Virus record (IMG/VR): IMGVR_UViG_3300030379_000158
Source of the DNA: a virus
Taxonomy: Duplodnaviria; Heunggongvirae; Uroviricota; Caudoviricetes
Length of the DNA stretch: 64,000 nucleotides
Direction: 5' to 3' (one strand)
Shown: piece by piece, positions 1 through 22,974 of the stretch
How the letters are laid out: the number at the start of each line of letters is the position of its first letter
How positions within the stretch are numbered: the stretch's first letter is position 1
Notes under the pieces: generated by a model
Seen by the model: the letters and a program-made list of their open reading frames with translations, nothing else
Told to the model about the DNA's origin: nothing
Databases searched by the model: none
Position numbers and translations under genes: made by a program

Positions 1-325
1 CAAAACAGGCGGTGTACTGGCCTACACTTTTGGTCCCCGAACCGATCAAACGTGCCGGGAGCTACTGGCACTGCTTATACCCTTCAATATCGGCATGCTC
101 ACCAGCGATGACTGGGGCAGCTATGGCCGGGGGGGGCGAAGAATAAGCATCTGACCGGCAAAATATTCACCCAACGCATTGAGCGTAATAATCTGACGCT
201 ACGCACCCGCATTAAGCAGTTGGCTCGTAAAAAACAATCTGCTTCTCACGCTCAGTTGAGATCCACGAAAAAGTGATCGGAGCGTTTATCGAAAAACACA
301 TGTTCTACTAATTGGATGCACTACC
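1..325 (+). mobile_element. IS1-family insertion sequence, right-hand end only (cut by window edge); transposase 3' part appears frameshifted
   Basis: Translation gives IPFNIGMLTSDDWGSYG...KHLTGKIFTQRIERNNLTLRTRIKQLARK...SVEIHEKVIGAFIEKHMFY*, resembling the IS1 InsB C-terminus but needing frame changes at a G8 run (~135-142) and an A6 run (~224-229). Terminal ttggatgcactacc (~312-325) resembles the IS1 inverted repeat. Confidence 0.55.
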
Positions 326-562
326 CGTGTTTTATACTGCGCTGTTGTTTCTGGTTGCGATTTGGTCTTAGTGTTATTTTTTACTCTATATTATTAATAC
401 CATCCTAATAATTAATTGGTTTGCAATGGTGTTTTTTGTGATCCTGATCACGAAAATATCTCGATATTTATTTAAAAAACTTGAAATGTAAATCAAAAAA
501 AGATAAACATCTTCCCTAAGTGACTTCTTTTCTGTTGAAAAGTTCAATCTAAAGGAAAAAAA

Positions 563-1675
563 ATGAAAAAAATTACAGTGGCACTTTCTACGGTTGCAGC
601 ATCTGTTCTGATGGCAATGTCTGCACAAGCGGCAGAAATCTATAACAAAGACGGTAACAAACTGGATCTGTACGGCAAAGTTAATGCAGAGCATTACTTC
701 TCTTCTTCGGCTAGTGATGACGGGGATAAAACTTATGCTCGTATGGGCTTCAAAGGTGAAACTCAGATTAATGACCAGTTAACCGGTTTTGGTCAGTGGG
801 AGTACGAATTTAAAGGTAACCGTTCTGAAACTGAAGGTTCTGATAAAGATAAAACTCGTCTTGCGTTTGCAGGGCTTCGCTTTGGCGATTATGGTTCGCT
901 CGACTATGGTCGCAACTACGGTGTAGCTTATGATGTTGGCGCTTGGACTGACGTGCTGCCGGAGTTTGGTGGAGATACCTGGACTCAGACTGATGTATTT
1001 ATGACCCAGCGTGCTACTGGCGTCGCGACCTATCGTAACAATAATTTCTTCGGCTTGGTTGATGGTCTGAACTTTGCTTTGCAGTATCAAGGTAAAAATG
1101 ATAGTGCTGCAAAAGTGAACAACTGGAAAGGCCGCGACGAAGTTGAATCTAATGGTGATGGCTTTGGTCTGTCAGCTACTTACGATTATGAAGGATTTGG
1201 CGTTGCTGCAACCTATGCAAAATCTGACCGTACTGATGGACAGGTATCCTATGCTAAAGCCAGCCCTCTGAATGCCTCTGGTAAAACTGCTGAAGTATGG
1301 GCTACGGGCCTGAAATATGATGCAAACAACATTTACCTGGCTACAACTTATTCTGAAACTCAGAATATGACAGTCTTCGGTGATGACCATATCGCGAACA
1401 AGGCGAAAAACTTTGAAGCCGTTGCTCAATACCAGTTTGATTTCGGCCTGCGTCCGTCCATCGCTTACCTACACTCTCGCGGTGAAAATATTGGTGCGTT
1501 CGGTAACCAGGATCTGGTTGAATACATCGACGTGGGCGCGACTTATTACTTTAACAAGAATATGTCCACTTTCGTTGACTATAAGATCAACCTGATCGAT
1601 GAAAGTGATTTTACCAAAAAATCTGGCGTTGCAACCGACAACATCGTTGCTGTTGGTATGACCTACCAATTCTAA
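563..1675 (+). CDS. General porin of the OmpC/OmpF/PhoE family (370 aa) with signal peptide
   Basis: N-terminal signal peptide ending [19 protein letters not shown], repeated aromatic/Gly beta-strand motifs, C-terminal ...VAVGMTYQF typical of enterobacterial trimeric porins. AT-rich flanks. Confidence 0.9.
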
Positions 1676-1830
1676 TTTTGGTAGGTAAGAATATGCGGGA
1701 AGGGAGTGATGTCACTGCCCGCATATAGGTGGCACCCTCATGCCACCTTTGAAGAGGCAATAAAATTGCCTCTTCTCAATTTAACTTCATGTTATTTATT
1801 ACCTTTTTATTAATTTGAAACTCTATTGTT

Positions 1831-1857
1831 GGGGCGCTTTGTTGCGCCCATTTTTTT
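1831..1857 (+). terminator. Rho-independent terminator after porin gene
   Basis: gggcgc-tttgtt-gcgccc followed by a T7 run. Further perfect hairpins at 1691-1726 and 1751-1775. Confidence 0.5.
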
Positions 1858-1908
1858 ACACCAATTAGGTAAAGTTATTTTTAAGTAATCGAGCAACTTT
1901 CAGCCCTC

Positions 1909-2397
1909 TCAAAATGGAATATCGTCTTCAAAGTCCATTGGAAGTTCGCTATTGGCGTTGCTCTGAGGTTTACCGCCACCGCTGTATTGCTGGTGGTTTT
2001 GAGGTTGGTTTGACTGCCCCCAGCCATTTGAGAATTGTGAATCGTCGCGGCGAGCGCCGATCATTTGCATGGTGCCGCCCTGGCTGACGATAATTTCCGT
2101 CGTGTAACGTTCTACACCGGCGTCATCTGTCCACTTACGGGTTTTAAGTTTCCCTTCGATGTAGACCTGAGAACCTTTTCGTAAATATTCACTCGCAATT
2201 TCAGCAATTTTTCCGAACAAAATGACTTTATGCCATTCTGTTTGCTCTTTCTGTTTGCCTGTTTGCTTGTCGCGCCATGATTCATTCGTTGCGATGCTGA
2301 GTCTTCCGACTGCTCCGCCATTTGGTATATACCTGATATCTGGGTCTTGTCCCAGGGTACCAATCAGGATGACTTTGTTTACACCGCGTTGTGCCAC
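1909..2397 (-). CDS. ssb: Single-stranded DNA-binding protein
   Basis: 162 aa, OB-fold N-terminus [23 protein letters not shown], Gly/Gln-rich linker, acidic tail ...MDFEDDIPF. Confidence 0.95.
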
Positions 2398-2416
2398 TTT
2401 TCTTATCCAACAAAAT

Positions 2417-2433
2417 AAATTAATTAGAGCAAT
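2417..2433 (-). promoter_or_regulatory. C1 repressor operator (16/17 match to ATTGCTCTAATAAATTT), upstream of ssb
   Basis: aaattaattagagcaat on + strand, reverse complement of the P1 C1 operator consensus. At ~21% of genome length from loxP, consistent with the P1 operator named Op21. Confidence 0.65.
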
Positions 2434-2566
2434 AATGTATATCTTTGAAACGTAGCTAACAAGTGATTTGCATTATCCTGTGCCTTCTAAAGGGATCGAG
2501 TCAGTCGGTATTGGCTGTGAATGGGTGTTTGTCCTGGAGCGTAAAAAATTCGCTTATGAGGTCTTT

Positions 2567-3415: not shown

Positions 3416-6146
<2,731 letters not shown>

Positions 6147-6184
6147 TTAATTAGAATAATTCGCATCGTGTTTTAACGGAATTT

Positions 6185-6201
6185 AACACTAGTCACTTGT
6201 T
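6185..6201. promoter_or_regulatory. Candidate late-promoter box (near-palindrome aacactagtcacttgtt) in darB/prt divergent region
   Basis: Motif ACAAGTGAC also found upstream of lyz (2458-2466), mat (19574-19583, reverse complement) and the baseplate operon (43233-43245), each followed within ~10 nt by a -10-like hexamer. Confidence 0.35.
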
Positions 6202-6212
6202 AATGATTACCA

Positions 6213-9200
6213 ATGAACAAGCTATCTATGGGGGTGTTTCGCTGTTCAAGTGTCAGCGAAATATTGAAATACATTAGGGCAATAACATCTCACCGAGCGC
6301 CGATTAAATACGGCGTGGAAAAGGTGGAAGGCAAAAGCTATGACCGACTGCGCCGGGAGGCGAATCAGAAGGCGATAGATTTGCTTAATTCGCTGGTGGA
6401 CGGCGCGACACTGACAGATGAACAGCGCCAGATCCTGGCCGGGTACACTGGTGAAGGCGGCATTGGCGGGTCCGTCTCCGAATATTACACACCAAAGCCT
6501 ATCGCTGAAGGTGTCTGGGAGATCATGAAGCTCTACGGCGCGGACGTAGGTAACACTCTGGAACCATCGGCGGGAACCGGCGTTTTTAATGAGACAAAAC
6601 CGGTTGGTACGGTGATGACCGCGACTGAGATCAGCAGTGTTTCCGGTCGTATAAACCAGTTGTTACACCCGGAAGACAGCGTACAGATTTCCCCGTTCGA
6701 ACAGCTGGCTATAAACACGCCTAACGATTCATTCGACCATGTTGTGGGTAACGTTCCGTTCGGCGGTCGTGATAACACACGCAACATCGATAAGCCTTAC
6801 GCAGAAGAAACGGACATGGGGTCTTACTTCATGCTCCGCATGCTGGACAAGATAAAACCTGGCGGATTCATGTGTGTGATTGTGCCGCCGTCCATTGTTT
6901 CAGGTTCAAACATGAAGCGGTTACGCCTGCGCTTATCCCGTAAAGCTGAATTTCTTGGCGCTCACCGCTTGCCTACCGGTACTTTTGACGCAAACGGGAC
7001 CAGTACAGTCGTTGATGTGGTGCTGATGCGCAAACATCCGGCAGAGATGGCTGAGAAAATCCCCCTGGTGGATGAAAGCACTCTTGAATCGGCAAATGTG
7101 CTTTGGCCAACGTTTATTTCTGGCAAGTGGTTTGAAAAGGACGGTCGCCGGTTTGTTCATGGCACCCAGGAAAAGGGCTTCCAGGGGCGTATTGAGGTTC
7201 GTGCCGACGGTCAGATTGATAACCAGGCTCTTAAAGCGAAGCTGATTCATCGTTTCGAAAGCCGTATCGACTGGTCTTTGCTCGATATGGCTGAACCGTC
7301 ACCGACCGCAGACGTTGTTGGTGAAGGGGAAATGCGCCTGATTAATGGCGTATGGCAAAAATATGCTGGTGGTCGCTGGATTGAAGCTGATGCCGGGAAG
7401 GAACTTAAGATCGATGCTGCCAGTTATGGCGCGGATAGCTGGGAGGCTCTTCAGCGTAACCTGACTACAACAGAAGGCCGTCTCGGCATGACATTTACCC
7501 AGATGGCAAATGTCCGCGATAAGTACACCACATCAATCAGCGACGATATGGTGCAGCTGGTGGACTGGATTAACAGCCAGCCTGAAAAATACCGTGAACG
7601 CTTGTATCGCGGGGCGATGATTGGCCGGATGTTAATTGAATATCAGGACATGAAGGCCGCCGGGCATAGTGCTGAACAAATCGAACAGCAGCGCCTTTCT
7701 CTGGTATCCCGTTTGCAGGCAGAGATTGACCGTTTTGGTAACCCCGGTCGCGGTCCGATAGCGAAATTGTCGGGGAGCGGTGCGCGCGCCTGGTTTGCTT
7801 TCCGTGGTGCGATTAAGCTGGATGGCACTATTTCTGACGAGCTGACAGGAAAGCTGGTTACGCATGATTCCAGCGCCAGTTATGACTCCACCAGCTATCA
7901 GGACACCCTGCGTTATCTCTATAGCGATCTTACCCGCGATCCAATCCAGCTCGATGATTTCCGCCTTGCGTTTACCGGCGAACTGCCAGCCAGTGATGAA
8001 GAGTTGCTTAATTTATTGGCCAGCACCCCTGGTATTGCGGTTTCACCGTATGGCGGGATTGTTCCGTTCGCCCGCGCCACCAGCGGCGACATTAACGAGA
8101 TAGTGGCTCCAAAACAGGAATTTCTTGCCACACTCCCCGACGGTCCAGTAAAGAACAACGTCCTTAATCAGCTGGCAGCGATCGAAGAGAAGCGCATCAA
8201 GACGCCAGCAGAGAATATCCGCTTTAAGCTCAATAGCCGTTGGTTCGACCGCTCCGTCATTCTGGAATTTTTGCAGGAAAACGGCTATCCGGATCTGCGC
8301 TATGTGCAGTCAGTGCAGCTGGAAGGCGACGAAATGGTTTCTGACACCTATCACGGTGGTGATGGTCTGTTCGTCGGGCACCGATACGGTGTCGTCCAGC
8401 GCAAGGATAAAGAAACAGGCGAGATCCGCTACGAGTGGGACCGTAAATCAGGTGAAAACGCGACCGGGTTCCCGGCACAGCTGGAAAAGTATCTCAATGG
8501 TGCGCGTATCGGTGGCAAAGATAGCGCGACGGCGAACGGCTACCGCGAGCAGATGGCACTGCTTGAGGACCAGTTCAATAAGTGGATCAAGACGCACGAT
8601 CGCTACGATGAACTGGTTGCCAAATACAACGATGTGTTCAATAGCAATATCCCGTATGAACACTCTGGCGATCCGCTTGGGTTGAAGGGATTAAGCGGTA
8701 AGCGCCAGCCATTTGATTACCAGAATAGCGAGGTGAGACGACTGTCCGAAGATGGGCGCGGCATCCTGGGCTTCGGCACCGGGCTGGGTAAAACGACGAC
8801 CGCGCTGGCGCTTGAGGCGTTCAACTATGAGAACGGTCGCTCCACCCGTACTGCGTATGTAGTGCCTAAATCAGTGCTGGAAAACTGGTATTACGAAGCA
8901 AAAGAGTTCCTGAGTGAAGAGGCATTCAGTAACTACCTGTTCGTCGGTCTTGATGTGCTGATGGATGGCGATCAGATTCGCCAGGTGCCGGTGCTCAATG
9001 AGAACGGTAAACCTGTTCTTGGTACTGATGGCACTCCAGTTATGCGCGATGCTCTTAAGCTGGCAGATGAAGCCACTATCACGGCGCGGATGAACGCGAT
9101 CCCGCACTCAAATTACCGTGCAGTCGTGTTTACCAAAGAACAATACGCCCGCATTCCGCTACGTGATGACACCGTAGATGAGCATGCACAGGATATGCTT

Positions 9201-13454: not shown

Positions 13455-13699
13455 AAAAGCGATACTACACAGTAAAGCATGGGACGCTACGAGCATTACA
13501 AGAGTTTGCTGATAAGCATAACGTTGAGGTGCGCAGGGAGGGGGGAAGTAAAGCTCTGCGCATGTACCGTCCGGACGGGAAATGGCGTACGGTCGTCGAT
13601 TTCAAAACTAACAGCGTTCCCCAGGGCGTCCGCGATCGGGCATTCGAAGAATGGGAGCAGATCATCATAGATAATGCATTGCTTCTCAATGCGGATTAA
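13451..13699 (+). CDS. lxc: Lxc/Bof-like C1 co-repressor candidate, 82 aa, TTG start
   Basis: 82-codon ORF starting with TTG and overlapping the upstream stop. I recall P1 bof/lxc as an 82-codon TTG-initiated gene. Confidence 0.5.
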   Translation: MKKRYYTVKHGTLRALQEFADKHNVEVRREGGSKALRMYRPDGKWRTVVDFKTNSVPQGVRDRAFEEWEQIIIDNALLLNAD

Positions 13700-13858
13700 A
13701 CTTCCCCAAATAATGGCTGTTTGCTCGCCGAGCATCGCTCAAAGAAACACGATTATTCAAACATATAGATAGTGATAGTGCCCTCGTATAAGTGTGACAA
13801 CTTCTGGCTCTAGTGGGCTGGGGAGGCGGCGCTTTGTTGCTAAATGATCTGGTTTAAA

Positions 13859-15799
13859 ATGGATATGAAAAAAGAAACGATTTTTTCCGAAGTAGAAACG
13901 GCTAACAGCAAGCAACTGGCTGTGTTGAAAGCTAATTTCCCTCAGTGTTTTGATAAAAACGGAGCCTTCATTCAAGAAAAATTGCTTGAGATTATTAGGG
14001 CATCGGAAGTTGAACTCTCTAAAGAATCATACAGCTTGAACTGGCTGGGTAAATCTTATGCCCGTTTGTTGGCCAATCTACCACCGAAAACGTTGTTGGC
14101 AGAAGATAAAACTCATAACCAACAAGAAGAGAACAAGAACAGTCAACACCTGTTAATCAAAGGGGATAATCTCGAAGTATTGAAGCATATGGTTAATGCT
14201 TACGCTGAAAAGGTGAAGATGATTTACATTGACCCACCATACAATACAGGTAAGGATGGGTTCGTTTATAATGATGATCGCAAATTTACACCTGAGCAGC
14301 TTTCTGAACTAGCAGGCATCGACCTCGATGAGGCTAAACGCATATTAGAATTTACCACCAAGGGGTCAAGCAGTCATAGTGCATGGCTGACATTCATTTA
14401 CCCACGCCTTTATATTGCTCGTGAATTAATGAGAGAAGACGGGACTATTTTTATTTCTATTGACCATAATGAGTTCAGTCAATTAAAACTAGTTTGCGAC
14501 GAGATCTTTGGTGAGCAAAACCATGTTGGGGATCTAGTATGGAAAAATGCAACTGATAACAACCCTTCAAATATCGCTGTAGAGCATGAATATATTATTG
14601 TTTACACAAAAAACAAAGAGCAGCTTATAAGTGAGTGGAAATCTAATATCTCCGATGTAAAAAACTTACTTGTCAACATAGGTGAAGAATTTGCATCAAA
14701 ATACACTGGCAATGAACTTCAGGAAAAATATACCCAGTGGTTTCGTGAACACAGATCTGAATTATGGCCTCTTGACCGATACAAATATATAGACAAAGAC
14801 GGCATCTATACTGGTAGTCAGAGCGTCCACAACCCCGGAAAAGAGGGTTACAGATATGATATTATACATCCAAAAACTAAGAAGCCATGCAAACAACCTC
14901 TTATGGGATATCGTTTTCCATTAGATACAATGGATAGGCTTCTGTCTGAAGAAAAGATCATCTTCGGTGATGATGAAAACAAAATTATAGAACTAAAAGT
15001 TTATGCTAAGGATTACAAACAGAAATTAAGCTCCGTTATCCATCTTGATGGGCGTGTTGCAACGAACGAACTTAAAGAGCTGTTCCCAGAAATGACTCAA
15101 CCATTCACAAATGCTAAAACTATAAAATTAGTAGAAGATTTAATATCTTTTGCATGTGATGGAGAGGGTATTGTTTTGGATTTTTTTGCTGGGTCAGGAA
15201 CTACAGCGCATACAGTTTTTAATTTGAATAACAAAAATAAAACGTCGTATCAGTTTATTACAGTTCAACTAGATGAACCTACAAAAGATAAATCTGATGC
15301 CATGAAGCATGGCTATAATACAATATTTGACTTAACAAAGGAGCGTTTAATTAGGGCGTCTAAAAAAAATAGGGATCAGGGGTTTAAGGTATATCAACTA
15401 ATGCCAGATTTTCGCGCTAAAGACGAATCAGAACTTACACTGTCTAATCATACATTCTTTGATGATGTTGTCTTGACGCCTGAACAATATGACACTCTAT
15501 TAACTACATGGTGCCTGTATGATGGCAGTTTGCTAACAACACCTATTGAAGATGTTGATCTTGGTGGCTACAAAGCACATTTGTGCGATGGTCGTCTGTA
15601 TTTGATTGCACCTAATTTTACTAGCGAAGCATTGAAAGCGTTACTTCAAAAGGTGGATTCAGACAAAGACTTTGCTCCAAACAAAGTCGTGTTTTATGGC
15701 AGCAACTTTGAAAGCGCAAAGCAAATGGAACTCAATGAAGCACTAAAAAGTTATGCTAATAAAAAATCTATTGAGTTAGATTTGGTGGTGAGGAACTAA
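13859..15799 (+). CDS. mod: Type III restriction-modification methyltransferase (Mod), EcoP1I-like
   Basis: YIDPPYNTGKDGFVYND (DPPY N6-adenine MTase motif) and FAGSGTT AdoMet motif. 646 aa from MDMKKETIF. AT-rich gene. Confidence 0.9.
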   Translation: MDMKKETIFSEVETANSKQLAVLKANFPQCFDKNGAFIQEKLLEIIRASEVELSKESYSLNWLGKSYARLLANLPPKTLLAEDKTHNQQEENKNSQHLLIKGDNLEVLKHMVNAYAEKVKMIYIDPPYNTGKDGFVYNDDRKFTPEQLSELAGIDLDEAKRILEFTTKGSSSHSAWLTFIYPRLYIARELMREDGTIFISIDHNEFSQLKLVCDEIFGEQNHVGDLVWKNATDNNPSNIAVEHEYIIVYTKNKEQLISEWKSNISDVKNLLVNIGEEFASKYTGNELQEKYTQWFREHRSELWPLDRYKYIDKDGIYTGSQSVHNPGKEGYRYDIIHPKTKKPCKQPLMGYRFPLDTMDRLLSEEKIIFGDDENKIIELKVYAKDYKQKLSSVIHLDGRVATNELKELFPEMTQPFTNAKTIKLVEDLISFACDGEGIVLDFFAGSGTTAHTVFNLNNKNKTSYQFITVQLDEPTKDKSDAMKHGYNTIFDLTKERLIRASKKNRDQGFKVYQLMPDFRAKDESELTLSNHTFFDDVVLTPEQYDTLLTTWCLYDGSLLTTPIEDVDLGGYKAHLCDGRLYLIAPNFTSEALKALLQKVDSDKDFAPNKVVFYGSNFESAKQMELNEALKSYANKKSIELDLVVRN

Positions 15800-15801
15800 T
15801 C

Positions 15802-18714
15802 ATGTCAAAAGGGTTCACTCTCGAAAAGAACTTGCCGCATCAGAAAGCAGGAGTCGATGCGGTGATGAATGTTTTTGTTTCCGCAACACCTCACCTGACG
15901 GATAATGTTGCTGTTCGCCTTTTAGCTAATCCTGAACTGAAGCTGTCTGAACAACAATACTACAACAATATAAAAAATGTTCAGGCGTTCAATGGTATTG
16001 CGCACTCAAAAGATAATCACAATGCTAAAAGCAACATCATTGATGTTTCTATGGAGACAGGTACAGGCAAGACGTACACCTATATCAAAACTATTTTTGA
16101 CCTGAATAAATCATTTGGTATTAACAAGTTTATCATCATTGTTCCGACTCTATCTATCAAGGCCGGAACCGTTAACTTTTTAAAAAGTGATGCTTTAAAA
16201 GAACACTTCCGGGATGATTACAAGCGTGAGCTGAGAACTTACGTTGTTGAAAGTCAGAAAAACGCTGGCAAAAATACAAAATCGTATATGCCTCAGGCTA
16301 TACATGATTTTGTTGAAGCAAGTAACTTCAATAAAAAATATATACACGTTCTTGTTATTAACTCAGGAATGATCAACTCTAAGTCTTTAACGGATACTTA
16401 CGATACTGGCTTGCTTGATAATCAGTTTAATACTCCAGTTGACGCGCTCAGAGCTGTAAAACCATTTATCATCATTGACGAACCACATAGATTTCCTACT
16501 GGTAAAAAAACATGGGAAAACATAGAGAAATTTAACGCACAATATATTATCCGCTATGGCGCAACCTTTAGCGAAGGCTATAAGAACCTGGTTTATCGTC
16601 TTACAGCCGTGGACGCATTTAACGATGATCTCGTTAAAGGTATTGATGCATATATTGAGGATATAGTCGGCGATGGTAACGCAAACCTCAAATTCGTCAA
16701 ATCTGACGGAAAGGAAGCTACATTTGAACTGAATGAAAACAACAACAAAAAATCGTTTAAGTTAGCTAAAGGTGAATCACTGTCTAAGACGCATAGTGCG
16801 ATCCATGATTTAACTCTTGATGCTTTAAACAAGAGCACAGCAGTGTTGAGTAATGGTATTGAGTTGAAGATTGGTAGCTCAATAAATCCCTATTCTTACG
16901 ATCAGACACTCGCTGATAACATGATGCGTAAGGCTGTCAAAGAACACTTTAAGTTAGAAAAAGAACTTCTGACACAAAGGCCACGCATAAAGCCTCTTAC
17001 TCTTTTCTTTATTGACGATATTGAAGGCTATCGTGACGGTAATGATATTTCCGGAAGCCTGAAGACCAAATTCGAAGAATACGTTCTGGCAGAAGCTAAT
17101 GAACTGTTAAAAACAGAGCAAGATGCGTTTTATAAAAACTATCTTGAAAAAACAGTCACAAATATATCTTCCGTTCATGGTGGTTATTTCTCAAAAGATA
17201 ACAGTGATAAGGATGATAAAATCGAGCAGGAAATCAACGAAATCCTTCATGACAAAGAGCTTTTGCTGTCTTTAGATAATCCCCGTCGGTTTATTTTCTC
17301 AAAATGGACGTTGCGTGAGGGGTGGGATAATCCTAATGTTTTTCAGATCTGTAAGCTCCGTTCGAGCGGTAGTACCACATCTAAGCTTCAAGAGGTAGGG
17401 CGCGGTTTGCGTCTTCCTGTGAATGAATACATGTGTCGAGTGAAAGACCGCAATTTTACCCTTAAATATTATGTTGATTTTACAGAAAAGGATTTTGTTG
17501 ACTCACTTGTTAAAGAGGTCAACGAGAGTTCTTTCAAAGAAAGGGTTCCAAGTAAGTTTACTCAAGAGCTTAAGGAACAAATCATGGCTCAGTATCCTGA
17601 GCTTTCATCCAGAGCACTAATGAATGAACTTTTCAATGATGAAATCATTGATGACAATGATAATTTCAAAGATTCAGATGCCTATAGCCGCTTAAAATCC
17701 AAATATCCAGCAGCATTCCCTATAGGAGTGAAACCTGGTAAAATCAAAAAAGCTACTGATGGAAAAAGACGCACTAAAATGCGTGTTGGTAAGTTCAGTG
17801 AGCTGAAAGAACTATGGGATTTGATCAATCAAAAAGCGGTGATTGAGTACAAAATAAACAGTGAAAGTGAATTTTTATCCATTTTCAAGTCATTCATGCT
17901 CGAAGAAACAGAACGATTTACCAAATCAGGCGTTCATACTCGCATTGATAAAATTTACATCCACAATGATATGGCAATGTCGAAAAGCATTGTCAGTGAT
18001 GACGATGACTTTGCTAAGCTGAACACAATGAGCTATCGAGAGTTTCTCGATAACTTATCACAGACTATTTTTGTTAAACACGGTACTTTACATAAAGTTT
18101 TTTGTGATATAAAAGACACTATTAATATCACTGAATACCTTAATATTCAAACAATCAGAAAAATTAAATCTGGTTTTAGTAAGTATTTGTTGAACAATTC
18201 GTTTAATAAATTCAGCCTCGGATATAATTTGATTTCGGGTTCAATTCATCCTACAAAGTTCACAAATGCTGATGGTAATCCTCTAGGCGAGGTATTATCA
18301 AGTGATCTTGGTGTATTGCAGGATAATGCAAAAGCACCATTAGATACTTATCTTTTTGAAGAAGTTTTTTATGATTCAGAGCTTGAAAGGCGTAATATAA
18401 CAGATAGAGAGATCCAGTCTGTTGTTGTTTTTTCAAAGATACCGAAGAATTCTATTAAGATCCCGGTAGCTGGTGGATACACTTACTCACCCGATTTTGC
18501 TTATGTTGTAAAAACAGCGGAAGGTGATTATCTTAATTTTATCATTGAAACAAAAAACGTAGATAGTAAGGATAGTTTACGGCTTGAAGAAAAACGGAAA
18601 ATTGAACATGCCCAAGCGCTTTTCAATCAAATAAGTCAGTCTGTTAAAGTTGAATTCAGAACGCAGTTTGCTAATGATGATATTTATCAGTTAATCAAGA
18701 GCGCATTACCATAA
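15802..18714 (+). CDS. res: Type III restriction enzyme Res subunit (SF2 helicase-nuclease), EcoP1I-like
   Basis: 970 aa; helicase motifs TGTGKT and DEPH; start 3 nt after mod stop. Confidence 0.9.
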   Translation: MSKGFTLEKNLPHQKAGVDAVMNVFVSATPHLTDNVAVRLLANPELKLSEQQYYNNIKNVQAFNGIAHSKDNHNAKSNIIDVSMETGTGKTYTYIKTIFDLNKSFGINKFIIIVPTLSIKAGTVNFLKSDALKEHFRDDYKRELRTYVVESQKNAGKNTKSYMPQAIHDFVEASNFNKKYIHVLVINSGMINSKSLTDTYDTGLLDNQFNTPVDALRAVKPFIIIDEPHRFPTGKKTWENIEKFNAQYIIRYGATFSEGYKNLVYRLTAVDAFNDDLVKGIDAYIEDIVGDGNANLKFVKSDGKEATFELNENNNKKSFKLAKGESLSKTHSAIHDLTLDALNKSTAVLSNGIELKIGSSINPYSYDQTLADNMMRKAVKEHFKLEKELLTQRPRIKPLTLFFIDDIEGYRDGNDISGSLKTKFEEYVLAEANELLKTEQDAFYKNYLEKTVTNISSVHGGYFSKDNSDKDDKIEQEINEILHDKELLLSLDNPRRFIFSKWTLREGWDNPNVFQICKLRSSGSTTSKLQEVGRGLRLPVNEYMCRVKDRNFTLKYYVDFTEKDFVDSLVKEVNESSFKERVPSKFTQELKEQIMAQYPELSSRALMNELFNDEIIDDNDNFKDSDAYSRLKSKYPAAFPIGVKPGKIKKATDGKRRTKMRVGKFSELKELWDLINQKAVIEYKINSESEFLSIFKSFMLEETERFTKSGVHTRIDKIYIHNDMAMSKSIVSDDDDFAKLNTMSYREFLDNLSQTIFVKHGTLHKVFCDIKDTINITEYLNIQTIRKIKSGFSKYLLNNSFNKFSLGYNLISGSIHPTKFTNADGNPLGEVLSSDLGVLQDNAKAPLDTYLFEEVFYDSELERRNITDREIQSVVVFSKIPKNSIKIPVAGGYTYSPDFAYVVKTAEGDYLNFIIETKNVDSKDSLRLEEKRKIEHAQALFNQISQSVKVEFRTQFANDDIYQLIKSALP

Positions 18715-18726
18715 TGCTAGTTTAAA

Positions 18727-18749
18727 AGGAGGTGAAAACCTCCTTTTTT
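18727..18749 (+). terminator. Rho-independent terminator after res
   Basis: aggaggt-gaaa-acctcct followed by TTTTT. Confidence 0.6.
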
Positions 18750-18788
18750 GACATCCTACACGACCTGAAAGAAGTGGCGTTTAGGCCG

Positions 18789-19430
18789 TTAAAAATAGTT
18801 CCCCTCTCCAGTTAAGATTCCATGAGGAACTCTTTTTTCTGCAAGTCTCTGTGTGCCCCGAATTATGTTAATGAGAGGGCTTAGTAACGATGGTTCCTGG
18901 TGTGCCTCAACTTCTCCAGCCATTGCCCTGATGTAGTCGGCGCTGGCAACGTTGTTGTATTCCGTCGCAAAGCAACATAGTAACGTCAGAACATGCTCTG
19001 TCGTTATTTCGCTCCAGTTGATGTTGAAAAATTCATCGCCTTTTTTATCGTGTTCGGAATCGAAGATGCTTTGGTGGAGGATGTATTTGCCGGATTCCTT
19101 GCGCGGTAACTTGATTGCTTTCTGGCGTTCCAGCTCCTTATAAATCTGCATTGCCTCAATTAGTACCGGCCTGCCGTTCATGAAGGGATCGCGCAACCTT
19201 ACACGCTGGCCAACTCGACCAGTAATAAAGCTGTTTTCCTCTTCCACCAGCACGATAAAACCCTTTTCCTCTTTTTCTCGCAATTCGCGCAGCAGCTGGA
19301 GTTCCATATCGCGGCGGCGTTCAGGGTAGCTGGTCCGCTCAGCCATTATCAGCTCGTTATTGATCCATGCAGCAGTCATTGACGCCGGTTTGCCGACGCT
19401 CATCGAAACAACGCATATTTTCTTATCCAT
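18789..19430 (-). CDS. Hypothetical protein (P1 mat-like position)
   Basis: ORF trimmed to ATG at 19430 (MDKKICVV) preceded by AGGGGG. The longer 262-aa ORF start is rejected. Confidence 0.45.
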   Translation of the reverse strand: MDKKICVVSMSVGKPASMTAAWINNELIMAERTSYPERRRDMELQLLRELREKEEKGFIVLVEEENSFITGRVGQRVRLRDPFMNGRPVLIEAMQIYKELERQKAIKLPRKESGKYILHQSIFDSEHDKKGDEFFNINWSEITTEHVLTLLCCFATEYNNVASADYIRAMAGEVEAHQEPSLLSPLINIIRGTQRLAEKRVPHGILTGEGNYF

Positions 19431-22316: not shown

Positions 22317-22333
22317 AGAATTATTAGAGCAAT
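22317..22333 (-). promoter_or_regulatory. C1 operator (Op99-like)
   Basis: agaattattagagcaat. Confidence 0.55.
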
Positions 22334-22399
22334 AAATTTTGAGATAAAAATCCCACTCCACCAGCTAAAAACTGGATTGTTTTTCATAGTTGTTTGACA

Positions 22400-22416
22400 A
22401 TTGCTCTAATAAATTA
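22400..22416 (+). promoter_or_regulatory. C1 operator (Op99-like) overlapping a TTGACA -35 element upstream of coi/c1
   Basis: attgctctaataaatta, 16/17, immediately after ttgaca. Confidence 0.7.
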
Positions 22417-22654
22417 TAGTTTTGCCGCCGTTACGTAATACGACTTTGGATTCACTATTTAATGTGTCTTCAGCGTTGTAGAGCGGCTCAGAAGGAAATG
22501 AGCAAACAGGGAAACCTTATACAACGGCATTACAGCTATGCATTGCTCATCTTACACACAGCGCAATGTTGTTAGATTACCCCAGCATGGATCATGGGTG
22601 AAACAGTAGGTCAGAGCTTCAGGCTCTGTGTTGTCAATACAGTGAGGCATAATT

Positions 22655-22864
22655 ATGGCTTTCATTCAACCAACCATCGACGACGTTAGACATTGCTCTA
22701 ACGCTTTATCTGTAGACCCTGCCGAAACCGACGCTGCCCGCGCCATTGCTGAACACTACTCAAAGATATCCAATCAGGAGTACCGCATCACCCAAGACGA
22801 CTTGGATGACCTCACTGACACAATCGAATATCTCATGGCAACTAACCAGTTAGACTCACAATAA
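22655..22864 (+). CDS. coi: C1-inactivator Coi-like protein, 69 aa
   Basis: 69-aa acidic ORF immediately upstream of c1 in the same orientation. Confidence 0.55.
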   Translation: MAFIQPTIDDVRHCSNALSVDPAETDAARAIAEHYSKISNQEYRITQDDLDDLTDTIEYLMATNQLDSQ

Positions 22865-22974
22865 ATGCACTAATAAATCTATTATTTTTGTTTGATCCCT
22901 CTATAATATAGGTCAGTAATGACCGGTTTTCTCAGCCGGGCGTTATTGACCATGTCAATTCTGGAGGAGGATCA

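What the first reader, a model, noticed from the sequence alone, without database searches (positions are those of the whole stretch)
326..1900. General porin gene carried as cargo next to a decayed IS1-family end
A complete OmpC/OmpF-family porin gene with its own AT-rich promoter region and several terminator hairpins lies between ssb and an IS1-family right end. I recall P1 having IS1 with small isa ORFs here, not a porin. A phage-plasmid-encoded porin could alter outer-membrane permeability or remodel receptors used by other phages.
Basis: partly seen in the sequence, partly recalled or inferred. Interest (0 to 1): 0.55.

Follow-up and report, generated by a model that had tools for sequence, protein, structure and literature searches.

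The report
Phage P7-type porin gene, already known
The porin gene is real and intact, but it is the already-annotated nmpC porin module of phage P7-type P1-like phage-plasmids, with a conserved regulatory-RNA-like tail, and the neighbouring insertion sequence did not bring it in.

Summary
Observation confirmed. A 370-aa general porin (563-1675, +) lies between the right end of an IS1-family element (ends at 325) and ssb (1909-2397, -).

The interpretation needs correcting. Phage P7 (AF503408) has an annotated nmpC at exactly this place, 96% identical in DNA, with no IS. 113 of 500 PLSDB plasmids with the P1-type ssb-lyz junction carry the module. The IS is a frameshifted ISEc30-like copy without a target duplication. 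It occurs only in a few sister plasmids, so it is a late arrival and not the vehicle.

The protein belongs to the NmpC/Lc/OmpD clade: 82-85% to lambdoid NmpC, about 80% to PA-2 Lc, 70-75% to OmpD-like porins, 57-65% to K-12 OmpC/F/PhoE/N. It is under purifying selection (dN/dS 0.06-0.29).

Only one of the "terminator hairpins" is a terminator. The 182-nt 3' UTR is a diverged homologue of the IpeX sRNA region downstream of DLP12 nmpC and PA-2 lc (covariance model 67.5 bits, E 5e-16; 12 compensatory pairs). A CRP-like site sits where the PA-2 record annotates one, and there is no C1 operator.

Most likely function is an lc-like lysogenic-conversion porin swap, which is inferred and untested. Known kind, low novelty.

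The parts
1..325 (+). Right ~325 bp of an ISEc30-like IS1-family element. It holds the 3' part of insB, pseudogenised, and the right terminal repeat ends at 325. The window starts inside the element.
   Evidence: It is 96.9% identical to the annotated IS1-family element (ISEc30) of phage Rac-SA53. The alignment shows a 1-nt deletion in a G-run and a 2-nt insertion that break the frame. The element has full length (766 bp) in sister plasmid pRHB16-C13_3 and no target duplication. Canonical IS1 of P1 does not match it.
326..404 (.). 79-bp T-rich orphan spacer between the IS end and the start of the conserved porin module.
   Evidence: It is absent from P7, from the chromosomal island copy and from about 100 plasmids, whose homology all starts at 404/405. 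It is present only in the IS-bearing sister plasmids.
405..562 (+). Promoter and 5' UTR of the porin. Features: CRP-like site TGTGATCCTGATCACG at 437-452; likely -35 TTGAAA at 481-486; weak -10 around 504-510 (inferred); Shine-Dalgarno AAAGGA at 551-556.
   Evidence: The CRP-like site starts 126-128 nt before the ATG in the P7-type upstream regions that carry it (perfect TGTGATTTTGATCACA) and 125-127 nt in lambdoid NmpC loci. A related site is present in most OmpD-like loci examined. The PA-2 lc record annotates a CRP site at this same place (1363-1383, ATG at 1492). On its own the site is not above chance in 64 kb: 2 found, 2.2 expected. No C1 operator lies in 326-1908. Hexamers were read by eye from the alignment with PA-2.
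563..1675 (+). Porin gene (370 aa plus stop), P7-type NmpC allele. Signal peptide 563-631.
   Evidence: Family and fold. Identity is 96.5% to P7 NmpC, 82-85% to lambdoid NmpC, 79-81% to PA-2 Lc, 70-75% to OmpD-like porins and 57-65% to K-12 OmpC/OmpF/PhoE/OmpN. dN/dS is 0.12-0.29 within the P7 type and 0.06 against lambdoid alleles. The signal peptide is placed by homology with the P7 annotation.
1676..1857 (+). IpeX-like structured 3' UTR. Stem-loop 1 at 1691-1726; stem-loop 2 at 1727-1748; stem-loop 3 at 1751-1775; conserved unpaired stretch AACTTCATGTTATTTATTACC at 1783-1803; intrinsic terminator stem 1832-1849 with T-run to 1857.
   Evidence: It aligns with the region directly downstream of DLP12 nmpC and PA-2 lc, which is the IpeX region. 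A covariance model built only from lambdoid copies hits 1676-1824 at 67.5 bits, E 5e-16, the only strong hit in the window. On the joint alignment 98% of cells pair and 12 of 39 pairs changed on both sides, against 0-2 in slid controls. MFE is -66.9 kcal/mol, z -6.1. Terminator scan.
1858..1908 (.). Spacer between the module's terminator and the stop codon of ssb. P1/P7 backbone homology resumes at 1909.
   Evidence: P1-type records match the window only from 1909 on. The chromosomal island copy matches only up to 1856.
1909..2397 (-). ssb of the P1/P7 backbone (context, convergent with the porin). Its C1 operator is at 2417-2433.
   Evidence: Pfam SSB E 4e-38. It matches annotated P1/P7 ssb with operator Op(ssb). 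Operator match with 1 mismatch.

Best explanation
This is the nmpC-type porin 'moron' of the P7 lineage of P1-like phage-plasmids. It is a self-contained unit of about 1.45 kb (405-1857) inserted between hxr/odaA and ssb. It consists of a sigma-70 promoter with a CRP site, a porin of the NmpC/Lc/OmpD clade, a structured IpeX-type 3' UTR and an intrinsic terminator.

Shown:
- The identity, the module boundaries and the wide distribution.
- Purifying selection on the porin.
- Homology and conserved structure of the 3' UTR.
- Absence of a C1 operator.
- The ISEc30-like element is a later, degenerate insertion or rearrangement upstream.

Inferred:
- In the plasmid prophage state, host RNA polymerase with cAMP-CRP transcribes the unit.
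- The porin is exported and assembled as a general diffusion trimer.
- The 3' UTR is processed into an IpeX-like RNA that lowers host OmpC/OmpF.
- The lysogen therefore swaps its major porins for the phage's own, as reported for the PA-2 Lc porin.
- This would remove receptors for OmpC/OmpF-dependent phages and colicins while keeping solute uptake. It would not affect P1-type adsorption, which uses LPS.
For: - Locus: P7 has annotated nmpC at the same locus, 96% identical in DNA over 405-2500.
- Distribution: 113 PLSDB plasmids carry the module, against 500 with the P1-type ssb-lyz junction. About 114 replicons in complete E. coli genomes match at >=90%.
- Protein family: Porin_1 E 4e-148 and the OmpC subfamily cut-off passed. 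PHROG 410 at E 1e-208. Clade placement by identity.
- Selection: dN/dS 0.06-0.29. Differences from lambdoid NmpC concentrate in indel-prone, variable segments (odds ratio 15, p 4e-15).
- 3' UTR: the model R1 hit at E 5e-16. The element follows the stop codon in 87 of 87 NmpC-clade loci and in 0 of 82 chromosomal OmpD/OmpC/OmpF/PhoE/OmpN-type loci. Covariation and stable folds with the same architecture in the window and K-12. It is 61% identical across lineages whose synonymous divergence is about 1.6.
- IpeX biology: a 167-nt RNA made from the phage porin transcript that represses ompC and ompF (PMC12197685; PMC5069750).
- CRP: a site at the place annotated in PA-2. CRP activates ompD (PMC5137417).
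- Repressor control: 14 C1 operator matches in the window, none in 326-1908.
Against: - No expression or phenotype data exist for this or any P7-type copy in the literature I could search.
- The CRP-like site alone is at chance level for a 64-kb window. It carries one mismatch here, and the promoter region is 20% diverged from P7's.
- Sources disagree on how IpeX works: base pairing and Hfq dependence, no base pairing. My duplex calculation was uninformative.
- Most compensatory changes trace to a single split (P7-type versus lambdoid type), and the alignment was fitted to the model.
- The complete identity of the 3' UTR among P7-type alleles extends into the spacer and the last 100 nt of the CDS. 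That could reflect a recombination block rather than selection on the RNA.
- Several plasmids carry IS insertions in the porin, so the gene is dispensable.
Confidence: 0.8

Rival explanations
1. IS-mobilised recent cargo. The porin was captured from a host chromosome and carried into the phage-plasmid by the adjacent IS1-family element, perhaps as part of a composite transposon.
For: An IS1-family end abuts the region at 325. A chromosomal copy of the same module in E. coli 19451123 is embedded among IS elements. IS elements cluster at this locus in P1 as well.
Against: P7 and about 100 plasmids have the module with no IS. The IS lies on one side only, lacks a target duplication and is frameshifted. 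The window has no second copy. The nearest chromosomal or lambdoid alleles are only 75-78% identical in DNA, with dS 1.5-2.0, so there was no recent capture. Module boundaries at 404/405 and 1856 do not coincide with the IS end at 325.
Confidence: 0.04
2. Quiescent passenger. The gene is intact but effectively silent in lysogens, like nmpC in K-12 or ompN. It contributes nothing measurable and persists by hitch-hiking on a successful backbone.
For: NmpC and OmpN are described as quiescent porins in laboratory E. coli (reference titles). Several plasmids carry IS insertions in the gene, as do K-12 and phage 434. Promoter hexamers are weak. About three quarters of P1-like plasmids lack the module.
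Against: dN/dS of 0.12-0.29 among P7-type alleles and 0.06 across lineages shows sustained purifying selection on the protein. The ORF is intact in 109 of 113 plasmids at >=80% coverage. The CRP site, the TTGAAA -35 hexamer and the 3' UTR structure are conserved across lineages.
Confidence: 0.12
3. Host-fitness porin rather than a phage-defence device. The main benefit is altered permeability to nutrients, bile salts or antibiotics for the carrier cell. The 3' UTR is only a stabilising and terminating structure with no trans-acting role.
For: The protein is a bona fide general diffusion porin. Relatives such as Salmonella OmpD are abundant housekeeping porins under CRP control. Many carriers are MDR plasmids from animal and clinical isolates. 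The published mechanism of IpeX is unsettled.
Against: The long structured 3' UTR is specific to the mobile NmpC clade. The chromosomal OmpD-type genes whose 3' ends were read have only a short terminator hairpin. This argues for a function tied to the mobile life style. IpeX from the homologous region is reported to repress ompC and ompF.
Confidence: 0.25
4. Assembly artefact or chromosomal flank joined to plasmid sequence.
For: None found. The window does begin inside a repeat (the IS), which is where misassemblies typically occur.
Against: The junction IS-porin-ssb-lyz is reproduced at 99.2% identity in four independently assembled complete circular plasmids, and the IS-porin part also in pECTOK-001_2. 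The porin-ssb junction is in the P7 genome.
Confidence: 0.01

Closest known systems
nmpC of Enterobacteria phage P7 (AF503408 / NC_050152), also present in P1-like phages JL22 and phi456
   Same: Same locus (hxr/odaA - porin - ssb - lyz). 96% DNA identity over 405-2500 and 96.5% protein identity. The 3' UTR is identical and the signal peptide is the same.
   Different: The window's promoter/5' UTR is about 20% diverged, and its CRP-like site has one mismatch. About 480 bp of P7 spacer upstream is replaced by an ISEc30-like element plus a 79-bp orphan. The protein has 12-13 substitutions and one residue fewer.
lc porin of lambdoid phage PA-2 and nmpC of cryptic prophage DLP12, with the IpeX sRNA downstream
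   Same: Same porin clade (79-85% identity). The CRP site is at the same distance from the ATG and the -35 TTGAAA is shared. The structured 3' UTR is homologous: three stem-loops, a conserved unpaired stretch and a terminator. All are independent units in temperate phages. From my own knowledge: Lc expression in PA-2 lysogens lowers OmpC, the PA-2 receptor (Schnaitman and co-workers, 1970s-80s).
   Different: The carrier is a P1-like plasmid prophage rather than a lambdoid phage, and the position is next to ssb rather than between Q and the lysis genes. DNA identity is only 73-75%, with dS about 1.6. The 3' UTR is 61% identical and has a 19-nt insertion before the terminator. Surface-loop segments differ. 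P1-type phages adsorb to LPS, so the porin swap would not act as self-exclusion (my own knowledge).
OmpD of Salmonella and OmpD-like chromosomal porins of Citrobacter and Enterobacter
   Same: Next-closest proteins at 70-75% identity. A related CRP-type site lies upstream, and CRP activates ompD.
   Different: They are chromosomal, and their signal peptide differs. Those whose 3' ends were read have only a short terminator hairpin, and none of the 82 loci searched has an IpeX-like 3' UTR.
isaB-IS1-isaA segment of phage P1 at the same hxr-ssb interval
   Same: Same variable slot of the backbone, and an IS1-family element is present.
   Different: P1 has no porin. Its IS is canonical IS1, which shows no BLAST match to the ISEc30-like element here.

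Membership tests
General bacterial porin (Pfam Porin_1; NCBIfam 'porin OmpC' subfamily) | Full-length match to the family profile above the curated cut-off | tested here: met
   Porin_1 at 493.7 bits against a cut-off of 23.7, profile positions 1-337 of 337. NF007841 at 532 bits against 484. The PhoE and OmpF equivalog cut-offs are not reached.
General bacterial porin (Pfam Porin_1; NCBIfam 'porin OmpC' subfamily) | Sec signal peptide, L3 constriction-loop motif PEFGG, C-terminal aromatic residue for outer-membrane assembly | tested here: met
   MKK...SAQA|AEIYNK, PEFGG at residues 133-137, C-terminal YQF. The P7 record annotates the 23-aa signal peptide.
General bacterial porin (Pfam Porin_1; NCBIfam 'porin OmpC' subfamily) | 16-stranded beta-barrel trimer forming a diffusion channel | not tested
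   This is supported only by sequence homology over the whole mature chain to solved porins (OmpK37, OmpC, OmpK36, PhoE, OmpF; E 1e-136 to 1e-109). No model was built.
Phage-borne NmpC/Lc porin module (lysogenic-conversion moron) | Protein closer to NmpC/Lc than to any housekeeping porin | tested here: met
   82-85% to lambdoid NmpC and 79-81% to Lc, against 57-65% to K-12 OmpC/F/PhoE/N.
Phage-borne NmpC/Lc porin module (lysogenic-conversion moron) | Own promoter and terminator inside a temperate phage genome, outside repressor and late control | tested here: met
   The unit spans 405-1857 and includes a terminator. It has no C1 operator, although 14 operator matches occur elsewhere in the window. 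The backbone is P1/P7. The promoter hexamers themselves are only inferred.
Phage-borne NmpC/Lc porin module (lysogenic-conversion moron) | CRP site upstream, as annotated for PA-2 lc | tested here: met
   TGTGATCCTGATCACG lies at 437-452, at the same offset as the annotated PA-2 site. Binding was not tested, and the site alone is at chance frequency.
Phage-borne NmpC/Lc porin module (lysogenic-conversion moron) | Expression in lysogens with reduction of OmpC/OmpF and loss of phage receptors | not testable with these tools
   This needs outer-membrane protein profiles and phage plating.
IpeX-type 3' UTR sRNA | Sequence and structure homology to the region immediately 3' of DLP12 nmpC / PA-2 lc | tested here: met
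   A model built without any P7-type sequence gives 67.5 bits, E 5e-16. 98% of cells pair and 12 pairs show compensatory change. The position directly after the stop codon is the same.
IpeX-type 3' UTR sRNA | Processed stable RNA that represses ompC and ompF | not testable with these tools
   Reported for DLP12 IpeX only. The duplex prediction was uninformative.
IS1-flanked composite transposon or IS-borne cargo | IS copies (or ends) on both sides of the cargo, with a target-site duplication | tested here: not met
   There is one IS, upstream only. ssb follows directly downstream. The flanks CCATTTCT and CGTGTTTTA do not match. The window holds no second copy.
IS1-flanked composite transposon or IS-borne cargo | Cargo absent from relatives that lack the IS | tested here: not met
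   P7 and about 100 plasmids have the porin without the IS.
GcvB sRNA (Rfam RF00022) | Score at or above the Rfam gathering threshold, and presence of the GU-rich R1 region | tested here: not met
   30.5 bits against a gathering score of 42. The 43-nt model segment between the first two hairpins is replaced by 14 nt; by my own recollection of GcvB this is where the GU-rich R1 lies. The homologous K-12 IpeX region gives no GcvB hit.

The most novel reading that the evidence does not exclude
P7-type P1-like phage-plasmids, about one in four or five of those in PLSDB and many of them MDR carriers, encode a two-part porin-swap cassette. One part is their own NmpC-clade porin. The other is a previously unannotated, strongly diverged IpeX-type 3' UTR RNA that silences host OmpC/OmpF. 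Carriage of the plasmid would then reprogram phage, colicin and antibiotic susceptibility of the host under catabolite control.
Probability: 0.4. Interest if true: 0.45.

Novelty: already known. Interest (0 to 1): 0.2.

Why it matters
As a discovery it matters little. Phage-encoded NmpC/Lc porins have been known since the 1970s-80s, and P7's nmpC is annotated at this exact locus.

Two points have practical value:
- The adjacent IS should not be read as the vehicle. The unit is an old, vertically and recombinationally maintained moron of the P7 lineage.
- The 3' UTR is a diverged IpeX homologue that is not in Rfam and is not annotated in any of the P7 or plasmid records whose feature tables I examined.

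P1-like phage-plasmids are widespread carriers of resistance genes. A cassette that may replace OmpC/OmpF could therefore influence phage-therapy host range and beta-lactam permeability in carriers. That would be cheap to test.

Tried and rejected
- BLAST of canonical IS1 (from P1) against the window gave no hit. The element is ISEc30-like, not IS1A.
- Rfam gave only a sub-threshold GcvB match to 1671-1857. I rejected it as membership because it is below the gathering score, a 43-nt model segment between the first two hairpins (where GU-rich R1 lies, by my recollection) is largely missing, and the K-12 homologue gives no such hit.
- RNAalifold on a plain MAFFT alignment of both lineages missed stem-loop 3 and the terminator because of register shifts. 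I replaced it with a covariance-model alignment.
- RNAduplex of the 3' UTR against the ompC and ompF leaders failed. The first script timed out. The second produced full-length pseudo-duplexes that are not interpretable. No conclusion was drawn.
- Literature searches for 'phage P7' with nmpC, for PA-2 with nmpC, and for IpeX with prophage found nothing on P7-type porins.
- The original IpeX, P1-genome and quiescent-porin papers are not held. Statements about PA-2 lysogenic conversion therefore rest on my own knowledge.
- The sigma-70 consensus scan found no convincing promoter upstream of the gene. Hexamers were placed by alignment with PA-2 instead and are marked as inferred.
- Structure prediction and the large protein-database searches were not used. 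The fold and family were unambiguous from profile and PDB sequence matches.
Full report
**1. What is in the sequence**

The ORF at 563-1675 (+) encodes a 370-aa protein.
- It matches Pfam Porin_1 end to end (E 4e-148) and passes the NCBIfam 'porin OmpC' subfamily cut-off. It does not reach the OmpF or PhoE equivalog cut-offs.
- It aligns over its whole mature length with solved enterobacterial porins (OmpK37 at E 1e-136, also OmpC, OmpK36, PhoE and OmpF).
- It falls in PHROG 410, a phage protein family (E 1e-208).
- The sequence shows a 23-residue signal peptide ending AQA|AEIYNK, the L3 motif PEFGG (residues 133-137) and the C-terminal YQF.

The surroundings are as described.
- The region upstream is AT-rich, with GC 0.31 in 301-600.
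- ssb (1909-2397, -) and the lysozyme gene follow.
- Window 1-325 is the right part of an IS1-family element.

**2. Context: a P1/P7-type phage-plasmid, and a known gene**

Megablast against phage records shows that Enterobacteria phage P7 (AF503408) matches window 405-2500 at 96%. P7 annotates 'nmpC: NmpC precursor' between odaA (the hxr homologue) and ssb. Phages JL22 and phi456 have it too.

P1 itself matches only from 1909 on.

In PLSDB, 113 plasmids carry the module, 109 of them at >=80% coverage. They are mostly ~90-120-kb non-mobilizable replicons of Escherichia, with a few from Klebsiella and Salmonella. By comparison, 500 plasmids carry the P1-type ssb-lyz junction. In complete E. coli genomes, about 114 replicons match at >=90%.

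The rest of the window is P1-like backbone (portal, darB, dam, ban and others) and holds 14 matches to the C1 operator. The porin is neither chromosomal flank nor an assembly artefact.

**3. The insertion sequence**

Window 1-325 is 96.9% identical to the annotated IS1-family element ISEc30 of phage Rac-SA53. Canonical IS1 from P1 does not match it.
- In the 99.2%-identical sister plasmid pRHB16-C13_3 the element has full length (766 bp). It begins right where the P1/P7 backbone homology on the hxr side stops.
- Compared with ISEc30 it carries a 1-nt deletion in a G-run and a 2-nt insertion that break insB. The flanks (CCATTTCT and CGTGTTTTA) show no target duplication.
- About 480 bp of P7 spacer are missing. 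A 79-bp orphan (326-404) sits between the IS end and the point (404/405) where homology to P7 and to a chromosomal copy begins.

The IS arrived with, or caused, a rearrangement upstream of a module that was already there. It occurs only in a handful of sister plasmids. The window has no second copy.

**4. Donor lineage of the porin**

| Compared with | Global protein identity |
|---|---|
| P7 NmpC | 96.5% |
| Lambdoid-prophage NmpC | 82-85% |
| PA-2 Lc | 79-81% |
| IS-flanked chromosomal island copy | 81-82% |
| E. albertii copy | 80-82% |
| OmpD-like porins of Salmonella arizonae, Citrobacter, Enterobacter | 70-75% |
| K-12 OmpC, OmpF, PhoE, OmpN | 57-65% |

Synonymous divergence from the lambdoid alleles is about 1.5-1.7, so this is an old lineage and not a recent capture. 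dN/dS is 0.06 across lineages and 0.12-0.29 among P7-type alleles, which indicates sustained purifying selection. Differences from lambdoid NmpC are concentrated in the indel-prone, variable segments of enterobacterial porins, presumably the surface loops (odds ratio 15, p 4e-15).

**5. The 'terminator hairpins' are an IpeX-type 3' UTR**

Only 1832-1849 plus its T-run fits a terminator. The 182 nt after the stop codon align with the region directly downstream of DLP12 nmpC and PA-2 lc. That region is where the 167-nt IpeX RNA is made from the phage porin transcript (PMC12197685). IpeX is reported to repress ompC and ompF (PMC5069750).

The window's UTR and the K-12 region fold independently into the same architecture: three consecutive stem-loops, an AU-rich unpaired stretch and a terminator. 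Their z-scores are -6.1 and -9.5.

A covariance model built from 15 lambdoid copies only gave these results:
- It finds window 1676-1824 at 67.5 bits, E 5e-16, the only strong hit in 64 kb.
- It finds the element directly after the stop codon in 87 of 87 NmpC-clade loci.
- It finds nothing in 82 chromosomal OmpD/OmpC/OmpF/PhoE/OmpN-type loci; those OmpD-like ones whose 3' ends were read carry a short terminator hairpin instead.

On the joint alignment, 98% of cells pair and 12 of 39 pairs changed on both sides, against 0-2 when the partner is slid.

Caveats apply. The alignment is fitted to the model, and most double changes come from one split (P7-type versus lambdoid). Even so, 61% identity at a synonymous divergence of about 1.6 indicates constraint.

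IpeX has no Rfam family, since K-12's own region hits nothing. That explains why Rfam returned only a sub-threshold GcvB match for the window.

**6. Regulation**

A near-consensus CRP site (TGTGATCCTGATCACG, 437-452) starts 126 nt before the ATG.
- The P7-type upstream regions that carry the site have the perfect palindrome at the same offset (126-128 nt).
- Lambdoid loci have a related site at 125-127 nt, and most OmpD-like loci examined have one at 151-159 nt.
- The PA-2 lc GenBank record annotates a CRP site at exactly this place.
- CRP activates Salmonella ompD (PMC5137417).

The site by itself is not above chance in a 64-kb window. The argument therefore rests on positional conservation.

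Alignment with PA-2 suggests -35 TTGAAA (481-486) and a weak -10 near 504-510. That would put the CRP site at about -72 (inference). No C1 operator lies in 326-1908, although one controls the adjacent ssb. Nothing visible therefore ties the unit to prophage repression.

**7. How it most likely works**

Shown: the anatomy, homologies, selection and distribution described above.

Inferred:
- The unit is expressed in the plasmid prophage under cAMP-CRP.
- The porin inserts into the outer membrane, and the 3' UTR yields an IpeX-like RNA that lowers OmpC/OmpF.
- The result is a porin swap, as described for PA-2 Lc (my own knowledge of the Schnaitman-era work; those papers are not in the library).
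- P1-type phages adsorb to LPS (my own knowledge). The benefit would therefore be exclusion of other porin-dependent phages and colicins, and/or altered permeability.

Rivals:
- Silent passenger. This is weakened by dN/dS and the conserved regulatory parts, but supported by recurrent IS hits in the gene.
- Permeability-only role. This is not exclusive of the main explanation.
- IS-borne cargo and assembly artefact. Both are contradicted.

**8. Verdict**

The finding is a correct description of a known feature.

The only modestly new element is that the P7-type module carries a diverged IpeX homologue. I found this homologue unannotated in the records whose feature tables I examined and unmentioned in the searchable literature. 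Interest is low.

Noticed in passing
window 1671-1857 (+): Sub-threshold Rfam match to GcvB: 30.5 bits against a gathering score of 42, E 3e-4 in a 3-kb search. It spans the whole model but lacks most of the 43-nt segment between the first two hairpins (where GU-rich R1 lies, by my recollection). The stretch AACUUCAUGUUAUUUAUUACC resembles GcvB's CACUUCCUGUACAUUUACC. The homologous K-12 IpeX region gives no such hit.
   Followed up: partly
window ~1575-1908: Among P7-type alleles the last ~100 nt of the porin CDS, the whole 3' UTR and the spacer show 0-1 differences. The rest of the CDS differs by 3-7%, the promoter region by 20-23% and ssb by 2-4%. The cause could be strong constraint on the RNA or a recombination tract; this is unresolved.
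   Followed up: partly
window 326-404: A 79-bp T-rich segment between the IS end and the conserved module has no match outside the few IS-bearing sister plasmids. Its origin is unknown. It may be foreign DNA brought in with the IS.
   Followed up: partly
window 13698-19173: The window has a type III restriction-modification pair here: mod at 13844-15799 and res at 15802-18714, with Pfam N6_N4_Mtase + EcoP15I_C and ResIII + endonuclease domains. The otherwise ~98%-identical sister plasmid pRHB16-C13_3 has a SIR2-family gene plus a ~23-kb Tn21-like resistance region in the same slot, carrying intI1, dfrA12, aadA2, sul1, mph(A) and mer.
   Followed up: partly
plasmids NZ_CP101271.1, NZ_MN510446.1, CP100027.1, NZ_CP034659.1; K-12 L008 2592-3786; phage 434: The porin gene is repeatedly interrupted by insertion sequences. 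ISVsa5 or IS5 occurs in several P7-type plasmids, and IS5 in DLP12 nmpC and in phage 434 (annotated after codon 346 in the 434 record). This suggests recurrent counter-selection or an IS5 hot spot.
   Followed up: no
L004 (E. coli 19451123 chromosome, 6001-7442): A chromosomal copy of the same module (77.7% identical, matching window 404-1856) sits next to a type I R-M system. It lies between ISKpn26 and a pile of IS3, IS30 and IS21 fragments. The 1.45-kb unit therefore also travels outside phages.
   Followed up: partly
plasmid NZ_CP126933.1 43325-43464: A 90.7-kb E. coli plasmid matches only window 405-543 (the promoter region, 79%) and no other part of the query. This may be a remnant left by deletion of the porin.
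   Followed up: no
window, whole: There are 14 matches (<=3 mismatches) to the P1 C1 operator consensus, against 0.3 expected by chance. They include the ssb operator at 2417-2433 and three sites within 22317-22880.
   Followed up: no
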